Below are positions 1,223-9,455 of a DNA stretch of 64,000 bases, one piece after another (positions within the stretch are counted from its first letter, which is position 1; every line of letters begins with the position of its first letter). A model generated the notes under the pieces. The model was not told the DNA's origin. It worked only from the letters and a program-made list of their open reading frames with translations, and ran no database searches. Source of the DNA: a virus (Duplodnaviria > Heunggongvirae > Uroviricota > Caudoviricetes); the IMG/VR virus record IMGVR_UViG_3300045988_146577; one strand, 5' to 3'. Made by a program: the position numbers and the translations under genes.

Positions 1223-2458
1223 TCAACCAAATATTTTTTGAACAACTTCACGAGCCGCTTGTGCAGAAGCTGAAGGGAGTTTGTTAATGAAAGAACGCTC
1301 AATACCTGTCACAAAGTCGCCTCGCATCATTCCAATCTTGGCCGACAACAAAAGTTCACGAGGGCCAATTGGCTGACTGATAAGGTGTTCTTCGTATCCA
1401 TCGCGAACGATACCGGCAAACTTAACCATCTTTTCTGCGTATTCATCCACGATACCGGCATTTATCAACATGTTGATCTCTGCCTCTTTGCTCATGTATT
1501 TCACATTCGAAACGATGCCAAAACGCGAAAAGTTCGCGGCGTTCTGGATGTTTGTACCCTGGTACAAGCCGGTTTCATCACCAGATCCGTTCGTGTTGCC
1601 AGTGCCAATGAAAGCAAACCGTTCATGCGGAGTAATGCGACGCCATTCTGGAGTCGCCTCTTTGATGACTAACGCTTCACCTTCCAGCACTGGCTGATAC
1701 ACGCCAAGAATTTGTGGAAACGCAAAGTCGTATTCATCCGCGAGGTAAACCCAGCCATGCTTCATTGCGAGCGCAAGCAAGCCAGGCTCGAAATACGTAG
1801 AGCCATCACGCGCCAGAATTTGCCCCGTAACATGTGCCTCTTCCATTGATGCTGTATGTTGGGCACGGATCAACGGACGATTGAGCAAAGCACATAGTTG
1901 TGTAGGCAATGACGATTTGCCTGTTCCTGCATGACCCCACAAATAGCCAGGTATGCCAAGTTCAAGCATCATGAAAATGTCTTTGATCAGTTCGAAGTCG
2001 CCATATACGTAGCCCTTCTTCACTTCTGGAACGAACTCTGGAAACGGCGTATTGACGTTGACGCTAACCATGAGCGGCGTCCCACGTTTTGTTCCGAGTT
2101 CTTTCACCGTTACATTTAGCAGTTCGTGAGCTGCGACCAGATCTGTCTTGTACTCAACTGTGCCTGTGTAGCCTGGGCTACTGGTCACGCCAGATGATTT
2201 GGCCATTTCGCTTTTTTGCTCGGCACGTTTAGCTTGAATTGCATCAAGTGCCTTTTTCGATAGCGTTGGCTCATCTGGAAACTGTGTTGTGTACATTTTC
2301 AGTACGGTGTCAGGATCGGCATCTTTTACTGACTCAGGAATGCCCTCGCAATTACCATTGGCAACATGGGACTTAAAATAGTGAAATGATTTTCCGCACC
2401 ACTTGCAAACAAGGTAATCAGAAGGATTTTTTTCATTTTGCAGTGCAGTAGTAGTCAT
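1223..2458 (-). CDS. AAA+ ATPase (MoxR/CobS-like) with N-terminal Cys-rich motif
   Basis: Walker A GHAGTGKSS, Walker B-like VYLADEYD, N-terminal CKWCGKSFHYF...C motif; 411 aa ORF. Confidence 0.75.
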   Translation of the reverse strand: MTTTALQNEKNPSDYLVCKWCGKSFHYFKSHVANGNCEGIPESVKDADPDTVLKMYTTQFPDEPTLSKKALDAIQAKRAEQKSEMAKSSGVTSSPGYTGTVEYKTDLVAAHELLNVTVKELGTKRGTPLMVSVNVNTPFPEFVPEVKKGYVYGDFELIKDIFMMLELGIPGYLWGHAGTGKSSLPTQLCALLNRPLIRAQHTASMEEAHVTGQILARDGSTYFEPGLLALAMKHGWVYLADEYDFAFPQILGVYQPVLEGEALVIKEATPEWRRITPHERFAFIGTGNTNGSGDETGLYQGTNIQNAANFSRFGIVSNVKYMSKEAEINMLINAGIVDEYAEKMVKFAGIVRDGYEEHLISQPIGPRELLLSAKIGMMRGDFVTGIERSFINKLPSASAQAAREVVQKIFG

Positions 2459-2553
2459 GCGTTTTTCCTTTGTTTTCTAATGAGCGTTCAACTTCTTATA
2501 TAAATATATCATTATCTATCGTAAGTGGTTACTTATCGTTAAGGCTGTTTTGT

Positions 2554-4662
2554 TCACTTTAAAATGATACGAGATAGTTCAGTAACTACAGATGAACCAA
2601 GACTATCAACGCTCGTTACCAGGGCATGATTTGCGTAAAATCTCTCCGGTGCATCAGTCATGATGCCAATTGCCATCAAATCAATGTCAGTCTGCGTTTC
2701 AATTTGCTTCGCAACCGAACGCAAATGAGCGTCAAAACCTCTCCCAACAGCCCACGGCTCGCCATCGCTCAGAACAAGCATGATCTTCCTGTCCTCCATG
2801 CGACCGGAAAATAACGATGCAAGGCTGGCTATGCTTTCACCATCCACGTTATTAAGAAGTGGGAATGTGTAGCCTACGCACCCCATACGTGAGCGAACTT
2901 CGCGAGAATTTGCTTTTTCATTCCAATTTTTGATGATAGGTAGCATTAAAGATTCAAAGCGAGAGAACTCATATTTGATAGCCTTAAGTTCTCCTGCTGC
3001 CATATGACTGCCAAATGTAGTGAAGCCGGTGATAATGTTGGGAACATTTATTCGATCAAGTGCATCGGCGATGGTATATGCACTTGCAAGAGCTAGTTTT
3101 ATCGTTTCGCCACTCATTGAACCCGATAAATCAATCACTTGTTGAACACAGGCGTTAACGGCTTTAGATTCTTCTTTTTTACGAAACACGCGATCATCAT
3201 TCATTGTTAATCTGTAGATACTTGAACCATGAATGCGCCCCCGACGCTGGCCAGGTATAAACTGAACTCTGTTTCTGCTTGCTATTGCACGTTCCAGGTC
3301 TTTTGCCAGCGTCGACGAAACACCTGACGAAAGGTGCTTTTCAATATATTTGTCGAAGAGTTGGTTGCCTTCAGGAACGATGCGATAACGGCTGATTGGA
3401 TATCCACCTAAATCAATATCGGAGAATGTTTTAATAAGCCGTTTGATATGGGCTTCTGCCTGATCAATCGAGCCGATGAAGTCGTATGAGCGATTGTATG
3501 GCCTGTATTCGCTTTTCGAGCTTTCTGTTAACTCGCTTTTAATCGTTTCGGATAGCGCATCTTCTGTCATGCCTCCGACTTCATCTTCCATGCTATCCAA
3601 CTCCTCTAAAGCCTCTTCCAGACTCATTTTTGACGGAGTTGGAATGTCTGAAGAGCCGTCTTCTGTCGTTTTTCTTTTTTCGTGGTCAGCGGTTAATGAT
3701 TCTGACGCCGCGTTATCAGAAGCATCAGAATCTGATACCGCTTTATCATTTTCTGTATCATCGAATATTGTTTCTGATGATTCAGGATTATCTGAATCAT
3801 CACTGTCGTTATTATCATGTTTGTGCTTACTATGTGACTCTGATTTAATAGATTTGTGATTATCTAACGATGAGGGTGTCTCATGATCTTCGTTGTCTTC
3901 ATTGTTTTCTCCAGAGGCATCCGTCTGGTCAGCGTCTGAAGGATCGGAAGTTTTTCCCGGAGCTGACTCCTTACCTTTGCTTTCACTTTCAGTGTCTTTG
4001 AGGATCTTAGCTATGGTCGCAGCCACCTTTACACAATCCTCGGTGCAAGACATGTTACGCACGGCCACATCGATACCATGTTCTTTTAATAATGAAATTG
4101 GTTTCTCAATGACAGGCCAATATTCATCCATGAAATCTACGAACGGTGCTTGGCCATCCCAGGCTCTTACAACCGGACAGAGAAAGAAGTTTAGAAAAAG
4201 CGCGCGCTGATCTTTGCCACAATAAGCAATAGCCTCTGAAGCCTTTGGTTTAAAGACTTTTTCGATTATAAGGCGCTGAGTTGCCATCAGATTACGTCTT
4301 GTTCCGTTAAAGACCTGACCCATTTTTCGCTCGATGAACACGTCTTCTAAGGCATTCCATAGCGACCAGGAAGGAACGCGTCCTTTTTCTCTCATTTTGT
4401 TGGACACACGAATATCGGTAAACAAAATGTGAGCAACCTCATGATCGAGAAATCCGCGCACAGCATTCATCAATGCCGGTGTTGCGTTATCCGGGATTGA
4501 TGGGATGTTTACGAGAATTGGCTCTCCATCATCGTTATAGCGTACATAAGCGTCGTCCCCTCGTTCTGCAACAGGGATGTTTTTACCTGAAAGGAGAGCG
4601 ACTACTCGTTTTACACTGTCACGGAAGTCCTGAACCTCTTTGATGGAACGTTTTTTAGACAT
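2554..4662 (-). CDS. von Willebrand factor A (vWA) domain protein with long acidic Ser/Asp/Glu-rich central region (CobT-like)
   Basis: C-terminal MIDAS-like motif VIDLSGSMSG; strongly acidic low-complexity middle; directly upstream of the AAA+ gene on same strand. Confidence 0.75.
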   Translation of the reverse strand: MSKKRSIKEVQDFRDSVKRVVALLSGKNIPVAERGDDAYVRYNDDGEPILVNIPSIPDNATPALMNAVRGFLDHEVAHILFTDIRVSNKMREKGRVPSWSLWNALEDVFIERKMGQVFNGTRRNLMATQRLIIEKVFKPKASEAIAYCGKDQRALFLNFFLCPVVRAWDGQAPFVDFMDEYWPVIEKPISLLKEHGIDVAVRNMSCTEDCVKVAATIAKILKDTESESKGKESAPGKTSDPSDADQTDASGENNEDNEDHETPSSLDNHKSIKSESHSKHKHDNNDSDDSDNPESSETIFDDTENDKAVSDSDASDNAASESLTADHEKRKTTEDGSSDIPTPSKMSLEEALEELDSMEDEVGGMTEDALSETIKSELTESSKSEYRPYNRSYDFIGSIDQAEAHIKRLIKTFSDIDLGGYPISRYRIVPEGNQLFDKYIEKHLSSGVSSTLAKDLERAIASRNRVQFIPGQRRGRIHGSSIYRLTMNDDRVFRKKEESKAVNACVQQVIDLSGSMSGETIKLALASAYTIADALDRINVPNIITGFTTFGSHMAAGELKAIKYEFSRFESLMLPIIKNWNEKANSREVRSRMGCVGYTFPLLNNVDGESIASLASLFSGRMEDRKIMLVLSDGEPWAVGRGFDAHLRSVAKQIETQTDIDLMAIGIMTDAPERFYANHALVTSVDSLGSSVVTELSRIILK

Positions 4663-4760
4663 GGCTAATCCTTTGTTATGAAAACAAATTATTTACTAGT
4701 GTGTTTAATGTAGCACTGCGCGAACAGGGAACTAAGCCATTCGCGCAGGGAGAAGAGGGG

Positions 4761-4973
4761 TTAACAGATTCTGACGGCTAAAGACCCGGAGCCGGTATTG
4801 AGAAGCGTGAAGCGTTTGTTGTTAAGTTCGAATATAAATCCAGTTGTGTCATTCACACCAACCTGAATCTGCTCATTCGGTAGATCGGTGAGGATGTCAG
4901 CTACACACTCATCAACTAATTTCTGTACGTGTCCGATCTCAAGAGCGATTAGGCTGGAAATAGTGGTGTTCAT
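4761..4973 (-). CDS. hypothetical small protein
   Basis: 70 aa ORF, no recognisable motif. Confidence 0.3.
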   Translation of the reverse strand: MNTTISSLIALEIGHVQKLVDECVADILTDLPNEQIQVGVNDTTGFIFELNNKRFTLLNTGSGSLAVRIC

Positions 4974-7555: not shown

Positions 7556-7585
7556 AAAAAAGGGGCCGAAGCCCCTTTGAATTTT
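7556..7585 (-). terminator. rho-independent terminator (possibly bidirectional) after tRNA cluster
   Basis: GGGGCCGAAGCCCC hairpin flanked by A6 on one side and TTTGAATTTT on the other. Confidence 0.6.
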
Positions 7586-7732
7586 GCGCTGAAAAAAGTG
7601 TTGCTAGGATGTTAGCAAGCTATGGTTAAGAACGTCTGCCGTAATTGTCTATCACAGCGTTGAGCGGTCTGGTTTATGTTAGCGGAGTCTTAATCTGGGT
7701 GATTAAAAGGCCAAACCGCTCAACGCTGTGTC

Positions 7733-7819
7733 TGGCGGAGAGTAATGGAATCGAACCATCATCGCTTGCGCAATGGGACGGTTTTCAAGACCGCTTGAGC
7801 ACCATGCTCCCTACTCTCC
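7733..7819 (-). tRNA. tRNA-Ser (anticodon UGA), about 87 nt
   Basis: Acceptor stem GGAGAGT/ACTCTCC, discriminator G, encoded CCA, anticodon loop CUUGAAA, long variable arm; folded by eye. Confidence 0.6.
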
Positions 7820-8139
7820 AGCTATTGTGATGGTCGGTGCTGAACTCCGACACAGGGTTGTAGCAAGCCCCGCAAAGCGCGCACTACTGTAGTTGCGGCA
7901 CATCAGCCTGTGCATTCATCACAACGGTAAGATCACTACCTTTCGACCAGTCATTGTGCACATGAACGACGATTAACCGTAATGATCTTATCGTTGTGTT
8001 GTGAAGCCAGATGCTTATCTTCTGGTTGCTTCAAAGAGCTGCACTTCCTCACAACGGTAAGAGCACTGGTCTGACTCTATCGATTTACGGGCTTGTGGGT
8101 CAGTATCGCCGATTCGCCCAATGCTCTTACCTGTTGTGT

Positions 8140-8215
8140 TGGTGCCGGTTAACGGGATCGAACCGCTGACATCCTGCTTACAAGGCAGACGCTCTACCAA
8201 CTGAGCTAAACCGGC
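8140..8215 (-). tRNA. tRNA-Thr (anticodon UGU)
   Basis: Acceptor GCCGGTT/AACCGGC, anticodon loop CUUGUAA, T-loop GGTTCGATCC, encoded CCA. Confidence 0.65.
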
Positions 8216-8219
8216 AATT

Positions 8220-8306
8220 TGGTGGGGAGTGATGGAGTCGAACCACCCGAGTCGCAATGACAGTAGATTTACAGTCTACCCCGCTGCCCCTACGGACTAA
8301 CTCCCC
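8220..8306 (-). tRNA. tRNA-Tyr (anticodon GUA)
   Basis: Acceptor GGGGAGT/ACTCCCC, anticodon stem-loop GTAGA-CUGUAAA-TCTAC, T-loop GGTTCGACTCC, long variable arm, CCA. Confidence 0.65.
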
Positions 8307-8311
8307 TAAAT

Positions 8312-8386
8312 TGGCGATGGTGGGTGGATTCGAACCACCGACCAGTTGGTTAACAGCCAACTGCTCTACCGCTGAGCTACACCATC
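8312..8386 (-). tRNA. tRNA-Asn (anticodon GUU)
   Basis: Acceptor GATGGTG/CACCATC, anticodon stem-loop GTTGG-CUGUUAA-CCAAC, T-loop GGTTCGAATCC, CCA. Confidence 0.65.
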
Positions 8387-9164
8387 AATTCAGCACTGCC
8401 AGTATTTATTACTCAACAGTGCCAATCGCGACGGTTTAGTTTCTGCCAGGAAACGCACCGCTACTTGCACTTTTCGTTAGTGCCAGACGCTTTCGACTTC
8501 GCTCAATAGTAGAAGGCAAAATCTTTAAGTAGATGATGTTTCTGAGGACAGCACCTACTTTGTAATTTATACAATGTGATGTATGGAATCATTTGTTGTG
8601 AAAACAGGCACCAATGGCAACAGTGGTTAAACCTACACAACAATCCTGTCTTCACAACGTTGAGGCCACTACTCCGATTGAATGTTTGCCCAACATGTTA
8701 CATATCAACGCTCGCCGGTATCTCTGTGAATAGAACCTTAGAATTGATAAAAATGTAATGGCCTCAACGTTGTGTGCTGGCTAACCATACCAGCCGGGCT
8801 ACGTCGCCGCTTTTTAACCCAGTATAAACGACATAATTGAACAAAATGACGTAACAGGATGGGCGGTCAGTGGCTAAGAATCCGGGAGTCATATGGAGTT
8901 GAAAATATACCAACCACCCATTCTGTTACTTCATCGGAGGGAACATGAATGTTCCCTCCTGCGTTCTGCAATCACACTCGCTCAGTGTGTCCCATTTCGG
9001 TAACGAGGCTGGAAACTGACCTCGCTGGTGTTTGGCTTATTAGGCTACTGCCAGATAGACTTCTTCGTTTGCACTTGTATTTAAGTTCAAACAGTCGCGT
9101 CTCAACGAAAACAAAGTCATCTTATACATAAAAGATAAGTAAGTAAATACTTATCACCATGTTT

Positions 9165-9455
9165 TTATTCGGTTGTGACTTTTTTGATCAAGGCCACTCT
9201 ACGACTAGGTGTTCTTGTGATGGTGGCAGTGAATCGTTTCGCCTGGATAGTAATGGTTTCGTTCTCCTTAAGTTGCCCGTAGCGAGTTTCCACCAGGGTG
9301 CCAAGACGCCACAGACCATCATCGATACGTTTATGACTAGCAAATTTAATCAGCAACAGTTTTACGACTAACTGACCTACGTAAAAGGCGAATGCGACTC
9401 CGGCCGCTAAGAAATAGGTGGCCAACCACCAGTCCCAAGAAGTTAAATTGCTCAT
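9165..9455 (-). CDS. hypothetical membrane protein
   Basis: 96 aa; N-terminal hydrophobic helix WWLATYFLAAGVAFAFYV. Confidence 0.45.
   Translation of the reverse strand: MSNLTSWDWWLATYFLAAGVAFAFYVGQLVVKLLLIKFASHKRIDDGLWRLGTLVETRYGQLKENETITIQAKRFTATITRTPSRRVALIKKVTTE

What the first reader, a model, noticed from the sequence alone, without database searches (positions are those of the whole stretch)
7640..8780. Phage-borne tRNA cluster (Ser, Thr, Tyr, Asn) interleaved with related long hairpins
Four minus-strand tRNAs, three of them separated by only 4-5 nt, are followed by a terminator. Around them are four 75-125 nt elements closed by related 15-18 bp inverted repeats: CACAGCGTTGAGCGG... 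(7657-7730), CACAACGGTAAGAKCA... (7917-7996 and 8050-8138) and CACAACGTTGAGGCCA... (8648-8775). They are not obvious tRNAs and may be processing signals, degenerate tRNAs or small structured RNAs.
Basis: seen in the sequence. Interest (0 to 1): 0.45.

Follow-up and report, generated by a model that had tools for sequence, protein, structure and literature searches.

The report
Phage tRNA array with tRNA-like hairpins
The four tRNA genes are real, and the four long hairpins between them are copies of a widespread, uncatalogued structured-RNA module that many enterobacterial phages (including P1) carry in the same untranslated, promoter-proximal arrays as their tRNAs; what the module does is not known.

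Summary
ARAGORN calls four minus-strand tRNAs (Asn, Tyr, Thr, Ser). Four related hairpins with about 20-bp stems lie at 7653-7731, 7920-7999, 8050-8139 and 8653-8775. A terminator follows at 7556-7580.

The window is an SSU5-like phage-plasmid. The hairpins ("LH") are a strand-specific RNA family. Across phages 13 of 19 stem pairs show compensatory changes. A U.G wobble sits at one fixed position, and G.U pairs favour the tRNA strand.

LH starts within 2 nt of a tRNA 3' end in 35 cases and abuts a 5' end in 1. M is a tRNA-shaped three-way junction with kissing loops and has the architecture of Rfam STnc100.

LH and M occur in P1's ban operon, in the pL or PR' leaders of lambdoid and Stx phages, in virulent Klebsiella phages, and in prophages of many Proteobacteria. 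Rfam has no family for LH, and I found no literature on it.

My best reading is co-transcribed, tRNA-derived punctuation and stable-RNA modules cut out by tRNA-maturation enzymes. This is inferred, not shown. The same array also holds a tmRNA-like tag template (9072-9040, ANEEVYLAVA*).

The parts
8312..8386 (-). tRNA-Asn (GTT)
   Evidence: ARAGORN; Rfam tRNA model 75.5 bits.
8220..8306 (-). tRNA-Tyr (GTA), class II. It is absent from the close relative Cyrano and from P1.
   Evidence: ARAGORN; Rfam 39.7 bits. Cyrano and P1 have Asn next to Thr with a 2-nt gap.
8140..8215 (-). tRNA-Thr (TGT)
   Evidence: ARAGORN; Rfam 70.6 bits.
8050..8139 (-). Long hairpin H3 (LH). It starts 1 nt after the CCA end of tRNA-Thr. 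It has a bulged A and carries the consensus stem CACAAC-A-GGUAAGAGCAUUGG / CCAGUGCUCUUACC-GUUGUG.
   Evidence: LH covariance model R2: 65.8 bits on the minus strand against 38.3 on the plus strand. Fold z-score -6.0. Nearly the same hairpin plus tail follows tRNA-Thr in P1. Absent from Cyrano and from CMS-2020a CP053388.
7999..8049 (-). 51-nt tail domain after H3. Its 3' end CUUCACAAC pairs back onto the 3' end of H3 (GUUGUGAGG), and it holds the small hairpin CCAGA...UCUGG.
   Evidence: Sequence and fold. Conserved with P1. This overlap of helices is a general feature of the family.
7920..7999 (-). Long hairpin H2 (LH). Its last 3 nt (GUG) are also the first 3 nt of module M.
   Evidence: R2: 53.3 bits minus against 35.3 plus. 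Fold z-score -4.7.
7824..7922 (-). Module M, a tRNA-shaped three-way junction. Its parts are the closing helix GUGAUG/CAUCAC, an AAU linker, the hairpin GCAC-AGGCUGAU-GUGC, a variable middle, and the hairpin GUCGG-AGUUCAGCA-CCGAC joined directly to the 3' strand. The two loops are complementary (GCUGA / UCAGC). It ends about 7 nt before tRNA-Ser.
   Evidence: Covariance model R1: 75.8 bits, E = 5e-18. The window copy's sequence was in the seed alignment. Family covariation is given.
7733..7819 (-). tRNA-Ser (TGA), class II
   Evidence: ARAGORN. Rfam lists it under tRNA-Sec at 44.6 bits, below the cut-off of 47.
7653..7731 (-). Long hairpin H1 (LH). It starts 2 nt after the CCA end of tRNA-Ser and is the last module before the terminator.
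   Evidence: R2: 46.4 bits minus against 32.5 plus. Fold z-score -10.7. Conserved in Cyrano and in both CMS-2020a records.
7556..7580 (-). Intrinsic terminator GGGGC-UUCG-GCCCC followed by U6. The hairpin also reads as a stem on the plus strand.
   Evidence: Read from the sequence. Not listed by the scanner.
8653..8775 (-). Long hairpin H4 (LH), upstream of the tRNA block, with an 82-nt apical part.
   Evidence: R2: 44.5 bits minus against 34.4 plus. Fold z-score -5.9. Conserved in Cyrano and CMS-2020a, and this stretch matches SSU5 at about 80% identity.
8595..8658 (-). Domain closed by a 14-bp helix, GUUGUGAAGACAGG / CCUGUUUUCACAAC. The helix shares its first 6 nt with the 3' arm of H4.
   Evidence: Inverted repeat I14. 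Fold energy -23.7 kcal/mol.
9040..9072 (-). tmRNA-like tag template GCA AAC GAA GAA GUC UAU CUG GCA GUA GCC UAA, which reads ANEEVYLAVA*. It lies in the same non-coding array.
   Evidence: The Rfam tmRNA models align this stretch but score below threshold: 21.7 against a cut-off of 47, and 17.3 against 84.
9003..9025 (-). Stem-loop 14 nt after the tag's stop codon, GCGAGG...CCUCGU.
   Evidence: Across 14 phages, 3 of its 5 pairs show compensatory changes.
8846..8934 (-). Long hairpin H5 with 22-nt arms. It is not a member of the LH family. It lies between the tag region and H4.
   Evidence: Inverted repeat I4. Fold z-score -5.5. No R2 match.

Best explanation
SHOWN. The four hairpins are copies of a conserved, strand-specific structured-RNA module, which I call LH. 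LH has a stem of about 20 bp. Its base is CACA/UGUG, the middle of the stem covaries, and a conserved U.G wobble sits near the top. The apical part varies in length and sequence.

The hairpins lie on the same strand as the tRNAs. They sit inside a CDS-free array of about 1.6 kb (roughly 9170 down to 7556, minus strand) that ends in an intrinsic terminator. Modules in the array are packed 1-7 nt apart, as phage tRNAs are. The order is: tag region, H5, H4, Asn, Tyr, Thr, H3 plus tail, H2 fused to M, Ser, H1, terminator.

M is a tRNA-shaped module. It has a 6-7 bp acceptor-like helix and a 3-nt linker. A D-like arm follows, then a variable middle. A T-like arm is joined directly to the 3' strand. 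A loop-loop kiss replaces the tRNA elbow contact.

Across phages, LH takes the slot of a tRNA. It begins within 2 nt of the 3' end of a real tRNA. Its own 3' end is shared with the closing helix of the next domain.

INFERRED. The array is transcribed as one precursor from an upstream, lytic-phase promoter. The host tRNA-maturation machinery then cuts it at module borders. I expect RNase P at the 5' side of M and of the tRNAs, and possibly RNase III within the 20-bp stems. In this reading the hairpins act as punctuation: they give the last tRNA of each block (Thr, Ser) a defined, protected 3' side. They are also released as stable small RNAs. Any job these RNAs have in trans remains unknown.
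For: RNA, not DNA. In a plain MAFFT alignment of 41 diverse LH copies, 91.8% of cells pair, against 36-56% when the partner columns are slid. Thirteen of 19 pairs show compensatory changes, and no shuffle of 500 reached the observed values. Stem position 17 is U.G in 25 of 41 copies, and in all four window copies on the minus strand, where the plus strand has a C-A mismatch. For 77 LH copies oriented independently by the adjoining M, the outer stem has 136 G.U pairs in the sense strand against 47 in the antisense. The sense fold is the more stable in 69 of 77.

Position. Of 209 context-unique LH copies, 35 abut a tRNA 3' end (gap -2 to +2 nt) and only 1 abuts a tRNA 5' end. The better-pairing strand is the tRNA strand in 33 of those 35, with 2 ties. 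Seventy-five are followed by M, on the same strand in 62, with 8 ties. The segment spanning the LH 3' end finds a strong complement (-12 kcal/mol or better) 20-200 nt downstream in 63% of cases. The figure is 25% for shuffled sequence and 14% for upstream controls.

M is a real structure. Among 81 distinct copies, 97.2% of cells pair and 13 of 21 pairs show compensatory changes. The kissing helix, which is not part of the model, is 94% paired and shows G-C to A-U and G.U changes.

Context. The modules always lie in the sense orientation in untranslated stretches just downstream of major phage promoters. Examples are the C1-controlled P1 ban operon, where they sit among tRNAs, and the stretch downstream of a pL-like promoter next to the repressor gene in mEp460, Stx2a_WGPS2 and E. 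coli prophages. Others are the PR' leader between Q and the holin gene in HK633 and CUS-3 and a 3.3 kb CDS-free stretch ending in tRNAs in the virulent Klebsiella phage UPM2146. In Massilia, M directly follows a real tRNA-Gly.

From memory, not tested here: RNase P is known to process non-tRNA phage RNAs and long hairpins, including the 4.5S RNA precursor, P1/P7 C4 RNA and P4 CI RNA.
Against: There are no transcript, end-mapping or cleavage data, so transcription and processing are inferred from anatomy alone. LH lacks a 3' RCCA-like tail. M has no encoded CCA, and its T-like loop is 8-10 nt rather than 7. Recognition by RNase P is therefore an assumption.

Many phages carry LH and M with no tRNA nearby: 105 of 209 LH copies abut neither a tRNA nor a canonical M. 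Punctuation of tRNAs therefore cannot be the whole function.

A 20-bp stem starting 1 nt after CCA could hinder 3' trimming rather than help it.

One of the four hairpins (H1) folds slightly better on the plus strand, at -42.0 against -41.2 kcal/mol.

The close relative Cyrano manages with Ser and Thr adjacent and without H2, H3 or M. Those copies are therefore dispensable for tRNA expression.
Confidence: 0.5

Rival explanations
1. The modules are mainly trans-acting mimics of tRNA or tmRNA. Once released, LH, M and the tag-bearing RNA would bind host factors of the tRNA or trans-translation world. Candidates are SmpB, EF-Tu, the ribosomal A site, tRNA-modifying enzymes and tRNA-cleaving defence nucleases. 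They would act as decoys, sponges or a phage-specific rescue system. On this view their closeness to tRNAs only reflects a shared expression niche.
For: M has tRNA-like geometry. LH and M occur in many phages without tRNAs and in late-operon leaders.

A conserved tmRNA-like 10-codon tag frame sits about 100 nt upstream of LH-M in HK633, UPM2146 and others, and further upstream in P1 and in this window. Its last Ala codon varies synonymously, and the stem after the stop codon covaries.

[quoted passage not shown] The relative STnc100 is an expressed sRNA (PMC12370729).
Against: No partner protein gene is consistently adjacent. M has no conserved G3.U70: that pair is G-C in 73 and G.U in 6 of 79 copies. 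M has no encoded CCA. ARAGORN finds no tmRNA. Only 15 of 228 M contexts have a tag within 600 nt upstream. Nothing here shows any binding.
Confidence: 0.25
2. The hairpins are decaying remnants of tRNA genes or tRNA-like genes. They would be kept only because the stems are slow to erode, and would have no present function.
For: Units turn over between close relatives: Cyrano lacks H2, H3 and M, and the CMS-2020a records carry different numbers of units. A minority of LH copies keep a T-loop. In Massilia a real tRNA sits in the LH slot.
Against: Compensatory changes keep 19-20 bp stems intact across distant phages. A wobble pair and a U.U mismatch are conserved at fixed positions. The family spans temperate and virulent phages and, for M, at least Gamma- and Betaproteobacteria. 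Neutral decay would not preserve this.
Confidence: 0.08
3. The hairpins are cis-acting transcription elements of the nut, put or rrn-boxA type. They would make RNA polymerase resistant to terminators, so that it reads through into downstream genes.
For: The commonest 3' arm reads UGCUCUUU / UGCUCUUAC, as in H3. This resembles boxA (rrn UGCUCUUUAACAA, lambda CGCUCUUA; both from memory). In mEp460-type phages the unit lies just downstream of a pL-like promoter, and no N gene is annotated or recognisable in the stretch between the repressor gene and the early genes. In the E. coli prophage an intrinsic terminator follows the unit. In the window a terminator follows H1.
Against: The boxA-like letters are base-paired, and they covary away in many copies, for example CAGUCGCUCCUCCUGUG and the window's H1, H2 and H4. 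The unit also sits in Q-antiterminated late leaders. HK022 putL shows none of the LH or M motifs. None was found in the pR operons of the same prophages.
Confidence: 0.07
4. The inverted repeats act at the DNA level. They would be miniature transposable elements, recombination sites, or single-strand initiation hairpins.
For: The ends are conserved while the interiors vary. Copy number differs between close relatives, and whole units are gained or lost.
Against: Reading the flanks shows no target-site duplication. No copies occur elsewhere in the 64 kb window. Orientation is tied to the direction of transcription. G.U against A-C asymmetry favours one strand. Stems covary instead of keeping one transposase-binding sequence. 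No transposase gene was noticed next to the copies examined.
Confidence: 0.03

Closest known systems
Rfam RF02076 STnc100 (gammaproteobacterial and prophage sRNA of unknown function)
   Same: It has the same architecture as module M. The closing helix ends in GGUG/CACC. An AAU linker and a first hairpin follow, then a variable middle. The last hairpin, CCGGG-AGGCA-CCCGG, is joined directly to the 3' strand of the closing helix. It occupies the same arrays: the third unit in the P1 ban operon scores 33 bits, and a unit in UPM2146 scores 47 bits, equal to the gathering score. It also lies in the Stx2-phage late leader (PMC12370729).
   Different: The STnc100 model does not match the window's M even at E up to 10. 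M has different hairpin sequences and a 5-6 bp loop-loop helix (GCUGAU with AUCAGC). STnc100 does not cover the long hairpins, which are the actual finding.
Phage T4 stable RNAs 'species 1 and 2' (rnaC, rnaD) in the T4 tRNA cluster (from memory)
   Same: They are non-tRNA stable RNAs encoded among phage tRNA genes. They are co-transcribed and co-processed with the tRNAs, and their function is unknown.
   Different: Different phage lineage. No sequence relation was tested here, and the comparison rests on memory only.
Bacterial Y RNAs of the YrlA type (PMC4201824)
   Same: A long stem formed by the two ends, capped by a tRNA-like part with a T-arm. Some are cleaved by RNase P. They are found in phages as well as bacteria.
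   Different: YrlA is defined by its position next to a Ro60 (TROVE) gene and by a Ro-binding helix. The Rfam YrlA model gives no match on the hairpins. Its only sub-threshold hits lie over real tRNAs. Only 9 of 207 LH copies have a T-loop. I did not search the window for a TROVE gene.
tmRNA (SsrA), including the two-piece permuted forms
   Same: The array holds a 10-codon frame that starts GCA AAC GA and ends in Ala-(Ala/Val)-Ala-stop, followed by a covarying stem. This is like the tag template and helix 5 of tmRNA. The Rfam tmRNA models align exactly this stretch.
   Different: No tRNA-like domain with G3.U70, T-arm and CCA was found by ARAGORN. The Rfam scores are far below threshold. The order tag, then LH, then M fits neither the standard gene layout nor the known permuted one (the latter from memory).
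Non-tRNA RNase P substrates: the 4.5S RNA precursor, P1/P7 C4 RNA, P4 CI RNA (from memory)
   Same: These are long hairpins or tRNA-like phage RNAs that RNase P cuts out of longer transcripts.
   Different: This is an analogy of mechanism only. No cleavage data exist for LH or M, and LH has no RCCA-like 3' tail.
Murine gammaherpesvirus 68 TMER transcripts, in which a tRNA-like unit is followed by pre-miRNA hairpins (from memory)
   Same: A viral tRNA or tRNA-like unit is followed directly by hairpins of about 20 bp. Host tRNA 3'-processing separates the two.
   Different: That is a eukaryotic virus using RNA polymerase III and the miRNA pathway. The resemblance is architectural only.
Lambda nut boxA and HK022 put antiterminator RNAs
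   Same: They lie just downstream of early phage promoters. The 3' arm of H3 resembles boxA.
   Different: HK022 putL shows none of the LH or M motifs. The boxA-like letters are paired and are not conserved across the family.

Membership tests
tRNA (the four genes) | A cloverleaf with an anticodon, recognised by tRNA scanners | tested here: met
   ARAGORN calls Ser, Thr, Tyr and Asn. Rfam RF00005 passes its threshold for Thr, Tyr and Asn. Ser is listed under the clan sibling tRNA-Sec at 44.6 bits, below 47.
tRNA (the four hairpins) | A cloverleaf recognised by tRNA scanners | tested here: not met
   There is no ARAGORN call and no Rfam tRNA-clan match at E up to 10 on 7653-7731, 7920-7999, 8050-8139 or 8653-8775. 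ARAGORN makes no call inside any of 207 LH copies.
LH family (defined here) | A stem of about 19-20 bp that starts CACA and ends UGUG, with a U.G or U-A pair at position 17, on the strand of the neighbouring tRNAs or M | tested here: met
   All four window copies score 44-66 bits on the minus strand against 32-38 on the plus strand. These copies were among the seeds, so the match itself is by construction. The strand difference and the U.G at position 17 can be read directly from the sequence.
M family (defined here) | A closing helix, a 3-nt linker, a hairpin, a variable middle, and a second hairpin joined directly to the 3' strand, with complementary loops | tested here: met
   Window 7824-7922 (minus strand) scores 75.8 bits. 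Its loops are GCUGA and UCAGC.
Rfam STnc100 (RF02076) | A match to the covariance model at the gathering score of 47 bits | tested here: not met
   There is no match in the window at the gathering threshold or at E up to 10. The architecture is shared.
Y RNA / YrlA | A match to Rfam RF02553 | tested here: not met
   There is no match on the hairpins at E up to 10. In P1 a 25.6-bit hit (cut-off 69) lies over the two real tRNAs.
Y RNA / YrlA | Encoded next to a Ro60 (TROVE-domain) gene | not tested
   The window's proteins were not scanned. None of the annotated neighbours in Cyrano, P1, mEp460, HK633, CUS-3 or UPM2146 is named Ro or TROVE.
tmRNA | A tag reading frame with a resume codon and a C-terminal Ala-rich degron-like end | tested here: met
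   Window 9072-9040 reads ANEEVYLAVA*. Seventeen variants occur across phages, with synonymous changes.
tmRNA | A tRNA-like domain with an acceptor stem carrying G3.U70, a T-arm and a 3' CCA | tested here: not met
   ARAGORN, which also detects permuted tmRNAs, finds none. In M the third acceptor pair is G-C in 73 of 79 copies.
tmRNA | A match to an Rfam tmRNA model at its gathering score | tested here: not met
   tmRNA_permuted scores 21.7 against a cut-off of 47. beta_tmRNA scores 17.3 against 84.
HK022 put RNA | Sequence or structure similarity to putL/putR | tested here: not met
   The putL region of HK022 contains none of the LH or M motifs. This was a motif search, not an alignment.
boxA (nut / rrn antitermination) | A conserved single-stranded (U/C)GCUCUU(U)A element | tested here: not met
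   H3 reads UGCUCUUAC, but H1, H2 and H4 read CCGCUCAAC, UGAUCUUAC and GGCCUCAAC. The element lies inside the stem and covaries. The boxA consensus itself is from memory.
MITE / mobile DNA | Target-site duplications, and dispersed copies that ignore the direction of transcription | tested here: not met
   The flanks show no duplication. Copies occur only in this array. Orientation follows the tRNAs or M.
RNase III substrate | About two turns of double-stranded RNA | tested here: met
   The stems are 19-20 bp with few interruptions.
RNase III substrate | Cleavage by RNase III | not testable with these tools
   This needs an in vitro assay or an rnc mutant.

The most novel reading that the evidence does not exclude
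The array encodes a non-canonical trans-translation device or decoy that phages carry. In this reading the tmRNA-like tag template (9072-9040), the long hairpins and the tRNA-shaped module M are parts of one RNA system. That system would be present in P1, Stx and lambdoid phages, SSU5-like phage-plasmids and virulent Klebsiella phages. It would either tag stalled-ribosome products with a phage-specific peptide (...LAVA or ...MVAA instead of ...LAA) or block the host tmRNA-SmpB system during lytic growth. The four hairpins would then be its helical scaffolds, not mere spacers.
Probability: 0.15. Interest if true: 0.9.

Novelty: new variant of a known kind. Interest (0 to 1): 0.62.

Why it matters
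Phage tRNA clusters are usually annotated as tRNAs separated by junk or by small hypothetical ORFs. Here the 'junk' is a conserved, covarying RNA family.

The family is present in some of the best-studied phages. In the P1 ban operon the ORFs upl and plp are annotated on the opposite strand. It also occurs in Stx2 phages, HK633, CUS-3 and mEp460. A megablast match to the LH/M junction is found in 472 of 5,426 complete E. coli genomes. Full-length M is found in dozens of proteobacterial species.

Rfam 15 has no model for the hairpins or for M. It has only the uncharacterised relative STnc100.

If these RNAs are processed by tRNA enzymes, they would be a bacterial-virus counterpart of tRNA-punctuated transcripts. 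If they mimic tRNA or tmRNA, they would point to a widespread way for phages to act on the host translation, ribosome-rescue or tRNA-targeting defence machinery.

Either way, covariance models for LH and M would correct many spurious ORF calls.

Tried and rejected
1. phi80 'M3 RNA', a classical phage RNase P substrate, as a possible identity. It is annotated as the oop homologue between cII and O. phi80 has N and nutL in its early-left leader. Rejected.

2. HK022 put. The putL region holds none of the LH or M motifs. Rejected.

3. Y RNA. No Rfam match on the hairpins, and T-loops are rare in the family. Kept only as an analogy.

4. MITE or DNA-level repeats. Rejected on strand asymmetry, orientation, absence of a target duplication and absence of dispersed copies.

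5. boxA or nut. The resemblance does not survive the family's covariation.

6. M as an alanine-accepting tmRNA domain. There is no conserved G3.U70.

7. Literature searches. Full-text searches for the arm sequences found only unrelated primers. Searches on the P1 ban operon, on a P1 transcriptome and on tRNA-like prophage RNAs found nothing relevant. The Pas sRNA preprint concerns other RNAs, next to structural genes. The P1 genome paper is not held.

8. A megablast of a lambdoid copy against isolated phages found nothing. The word-11 blastn search was needed.

9. The hairpin at 8846-8934 is not a family member.

10. The terminator scanner missed the terminator at 7556-7580.
Full report
**1. 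The observation**

ARAGORN finds four tRNA genes in the window, all on the minus strand. They are Asn(gtt) 8312-8386, Tyr(gta) 8220-8306, Thr(tgt) 8140-8215 and Ser(tga) 7733-7819. The first three are 5 and 4 nt apart. Rfam confirms Asn, Thr and Tyr. It lists the class-II tRNA-Ser under the sibling tRNA-Sec model, just below that model's threshold.

Their arms are 19-20 bp, a little longer than stated. Each folds far better than shuffled sequence. The shared motif occurs nowhere else in the 64 kb.

A canonical terminator, GGGGC-UUCG-GCCCC followed by U6, lies at 7580-7556 on the minus strand. The window is an SSU5-like phage-plasmid. The closest records are the roughly 108 kb Escherichia phages CMS-2020a and Cyrano.

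**2. The hairpins are RNA on the tRNA strand**

On the plus strand, all four stems have a C-A mismatch at stem position 17. On the minus strand this is a U.G wobble. An exact-pattern scan of IMG/VR returned 39 contigs with the same stem and unrelated loops of 71-94 nt.

I collected more copies through the adjoining module M, which fixes their orientation independently. Among 77 such hairpins the outer stem has 136 G.U pairs in the sense strand and 47 in the antisense. The sense fold is the more stable in 69 of 77.

In a plain MAFFT alignment of 41 diverse copies, 91.8% of cells pair, against 36-56% when the partner columns are slid. Thirteen of 19 pairs show compensatory changes. No shuffle of 500 reached the observed values.

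Three features are conserved: the base CACA/UGUG, a U.G (or U-A) pair near the top, and, in the commonest subtype, a bulged A and a U.U mismatch. The middle of the stem covaries freely. I call the element LH.

A covariance model of LH finds only the four known sites in the window. They score 44-66 bits on the minus strand and 32-38 on the plus strand. These four copies were among the model's seeds. The hairpin at 8846-8934 is not a member.

**3.

Directly 3' of hairpin 2, and sharing its last three bases, lies a 99-nt element at 7922-7824 on the minus strand. The same element follows LH in many phages. Its parts, in order:

- the closing helix GUGRUG/CAYCAC, which extends to the 7-bp UGUGGUG/CACCACA;
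- an AAU linker;
- a 4-bp hairpin with the loop AGGCUGAU;
- a variable stretch of 40-140 nt;
- a 5-bp hairpin with the loop AGAUCAGCA, joined directly to the 3' strand of the closing helix.

The two loops are complementary.

Among 81 distinct copies, 97.2% of cells pair and 13 of 21 pairs show compensatory changes. The loop-loop helix, which is not part of the model, is 94% paired and shows G-C to A-U and G.U changes. The window copy scores 75.8 bits.

The layout is that of a tRNA. It has an acceptor-like helix, a short linker and a D-like arm. A variable region stands in place of the anticodon arm. A T-like arm stacks on the acceptor, and a Watson-Crick kiss stands in for the elbow contact. 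I call it M.

Rfam's STnc100 has the same architecture with different hairpins. It matches a neighbouring unit in P1 (33 bits) and one in Klebsiella phage UPM2146 (47 bits, the gathering score). It does not match the window's M. The function of STnc100 is unknown.

**4. Position rules**

I examined 209 context-unique LH copies.

| Relation | Count |
|---|---|
| Abut a tRNA 3' end (gap -2 to +2 nt) | 35 |
| Abut a tRNA 5' end | 1 |
| Followed by M | 75 |
| Neither | 105 |

The tRNAs abutted at the 3' end are Thr (16), Ser (13) and Asn (6). The better-pairing strand is the tRNA strand in 33 of the 35, with 2 ties. M is on the same strand in 62 of the 75, with 8 ties.

In the window the order on the minus strand is as follows:

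- Asn, 5 nt, Tyr, 4 nt, Thr
- 1 nt, then H3 plus a 51-nt tail
- H2 fused to M
- about 7 nt, then Ser
- 2 nt, then H1
- the terminator

The 3' end of an LH is usually shared with the closing helix of the next domain. A 13-nt probe across the LH 3' end finds a strong complement 20-200 nt downstream in 63% of cases. The figure is 25% for shuffled sequence and 14% for upstream controls. In the window this holds for H2 with M, H3 with its tail, and H4 with the domain at 8658-8595.

In a Massilia genome the slot before M holds a real tRNA-Gly flanked by CACA...UGUG. A canonical T-loop occurs in 9 of 207 LH apical parts, against 0.24 expected from shuffles. So LH stands where a tRNA stands and is probably tRNA-derived. 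The window copies are not tRNAs.

**5. Where the family occurs**

- P1 ban operon. The order is the C1-controlled promoter, a dicF-like region, a tag template, LH, tRNA-Asn, tRNA-Thr, LH plus tail, LH-M, a third hairpin with an STnc100-like unit, then tciA. The ORFs upl and plp are annotated on the opposite strand.
- mEp460, Stx2a_WGPS2 and E. coli prophages. The unit lies in the untranslated stretch downstream of a pL-like promoter next to the repressor gene. No N gene is annotated or recognisable in that stretch.
- HK633 and CUS-3. The unit lies in the PR' leader between Q and the holin gene.
- Virulent Klebsiella phage UPM2146 (Ackermannviridae). The unit lies in a 3.3 kb CDS-free stretch that ends in two tRNAs.

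blastn finds 177 phage records. A megablast match to the LH/M junction is present in 472 of 5,426 complete E. coli genomes.

Full-length M is confirmed in 55 of the first 80 genome loci returned, one genome per species. These include many Enterobacterales, Aeromonas, Oxalobacteraceae and Marinobacterium. I estimated about 17 chance pattern hits in that scan, and these are not confirmed by the model.

Close relatives differ in unit content. Cyrano lacks H2, H3, M and tRNA-Tyr. The two CMS-2020a records carry other combinations of units.

**6. Mechanism**

Shown: LH is a conserved, strand-specific, covarying RNA structure. It lies in promoter-proximal untranslated arrays, packed against tRNAs and tRNA-shaped modules.

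Inferred: the array is one precursor, which the tRNA-maturation machinery cuts at module borders. RNase III may also cut in the 20-bp stems. The hairpins would then delimit and protect the 3' side of the last tRNA of each block. They would also be released as stable RNAs.

I give this reading 0.5. The points against it:

- There are no expression or cleavage data.
- Many copies occur without any tRNA nearby.
- A stem that starts 1 nt after CCA could hinder trimming rather than help it.
- Cyrano does without H2 and H3.

The rivals:

| Rival | Confidence | Main reason |
|---|---|---|
| Trans-acting tRNA/tmRNA mimics | 0.25 | Supported by the tag template; weakened by the lack of a chargeable tRNA-like domain |
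| Functionless tRNA remnants | 0.08 | Contradicted by covariation |
| nut/put/boxA-type antitermination | 0.07 | The boxA-like letters are paired and covary away; the units also sit in Q-controlled leaders; HK022 putL is unrelated |
| DNA-level repeats | 0.03 | Contradicted by strand asymmetry and orientation |

**7. The tag template**

At 9072-9040 on the minus strand the array reads GCA AAC GAA GAA GUC UAU CUG GCA GUA GCC UAA, which translates as ANEEVYLAVA*. From memory, the E. coli SsrA tag is ANDENYALAA.

Seventeen variants of such a 10-codon frame occur in these arrays, among them ANDDLMMVAA in P1, ANEEMYLAVA in HK633 and ANDNTFLAVA in UPM2146. The final Ala codon varies synonymously. 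A covarying stem follows the stop codon.

The Rfam tmRNA models align exactly this stretch but score far below threshold. ARAGORN finds no tmRNA. The 2014 tmRNA census lists phage tmRNAs only in mycobacteriophages and Bacillus phage G (PMC4131195).

In several phages the order is tag, stem, conserved segment, LH, M, with the tag about 190-215 nt upstream of M. However, only 15 of 228 M contexts have a tag within 600 nt upstream. Whether the tag, LH and M work together is open. This is the most novel reading that the evidence does not exclude.

**8. Verdict**

The tRNAs are ordinary. The hairpins are real and non-random. They are members of a widespread structured-RNA family that is absent from Rfam 15 and, as far as I could search, from the literature. 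The nearest known relative of the adjoining module is the uncharacterised STnc100. I rate this a new variant of a known kind, namely stable tRNA-like RNAs carried in phage tRNA arrays. Interest is moderately high, mainly because of the family's breadth, its presence in model phages, and the link to a tmRNA-like element.

Noticed in passing
window 9040-9072 (minus strand), with the following stem at 9003-9025: A tmRNA-like tag template, ANEEVYLAVA*, lies in the same non-coding array. Equivalent 10-codon frames occur in P1 (ANDDLMMVAA*), HK633, UPM2146 and others. They show synonymous variation, and the stem after the stop codon covaries. No scanner calls a tmRNA at any of these places.
   Followed up: partly
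window 7824-7922 (minus strand): A tRNA-shaped module (M) with kissing loops is fused to hairpin 2. It has the architecture of Rfam STnc100 but is not matched by that model.
   Followed up: yes
L043 (P1, NC_005856) 2376-2945, plus strand of the locus: The P1 ORFs upl and plp are annotated antisense to the array of LH, M and an STnc100-like unit in the ban operon. They may be spurious calls.
   Followed up: partly
window 8846-8934: A fifth long hairpin with 22-nt arms is unrelated to the LH family. It lies between the tag region and H4 and is conserved in SSU5-like relatives.
   Followed up: partly
L282 (Klebsiella phage UPM2146, MN478483) 1409-4743: A 3.3 kb stretch without annotated genes in a virulent Ackermannviridae phage is filled with the same modules: a tag, LH-M, further LH copies, and STnc100 at its gathering score. 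It ends in tRNA-Met and tRNA-Arg.
   Followed up: partly
window 8220-8306, compared with L001 (Cyrano) and L043 (P1): tRNA-Tyr is inserted precisely between tRNA-Asn and tRNA-Thr in this element and in CMS-2020a. It is absent from Cyrano and P1, where Asn and Thr are 2 nt apart.
   Followed up: no
L170 (Massilia sp. TS11) 4484-4796: The order is tRNA-Gly(UCC), then M after a 1-nt gap, then tRNA-Pro. The tRNA-Gly is flanked by CACA...UGUG. This betaproteobacterial version has a real tRNA where enterobacterial phages have the long hairpin.
   Followed up: partly
L044 (E. coli NZ_CP025916) 3160-3845; L167 (mEp460) 2775-3328: In SfV/mEp460-type lambdoid prophages, the roughly 700-nt stretch between the repressor gene and the first early-left genes has no recognisable N gene. 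It is filled by LH-M, a terminator and a second hairpin. mEp460 annotates small antisense ORFs over it.
   Followed up: partly
window 9073-9175 (minus strand): An AT-rich stretch with a near-palindrome (AAGTATTTACTTACTTATC) and a TATAAG box lies upstream of the tag. It might be the promoter or operator of the array.
   Followed up: no
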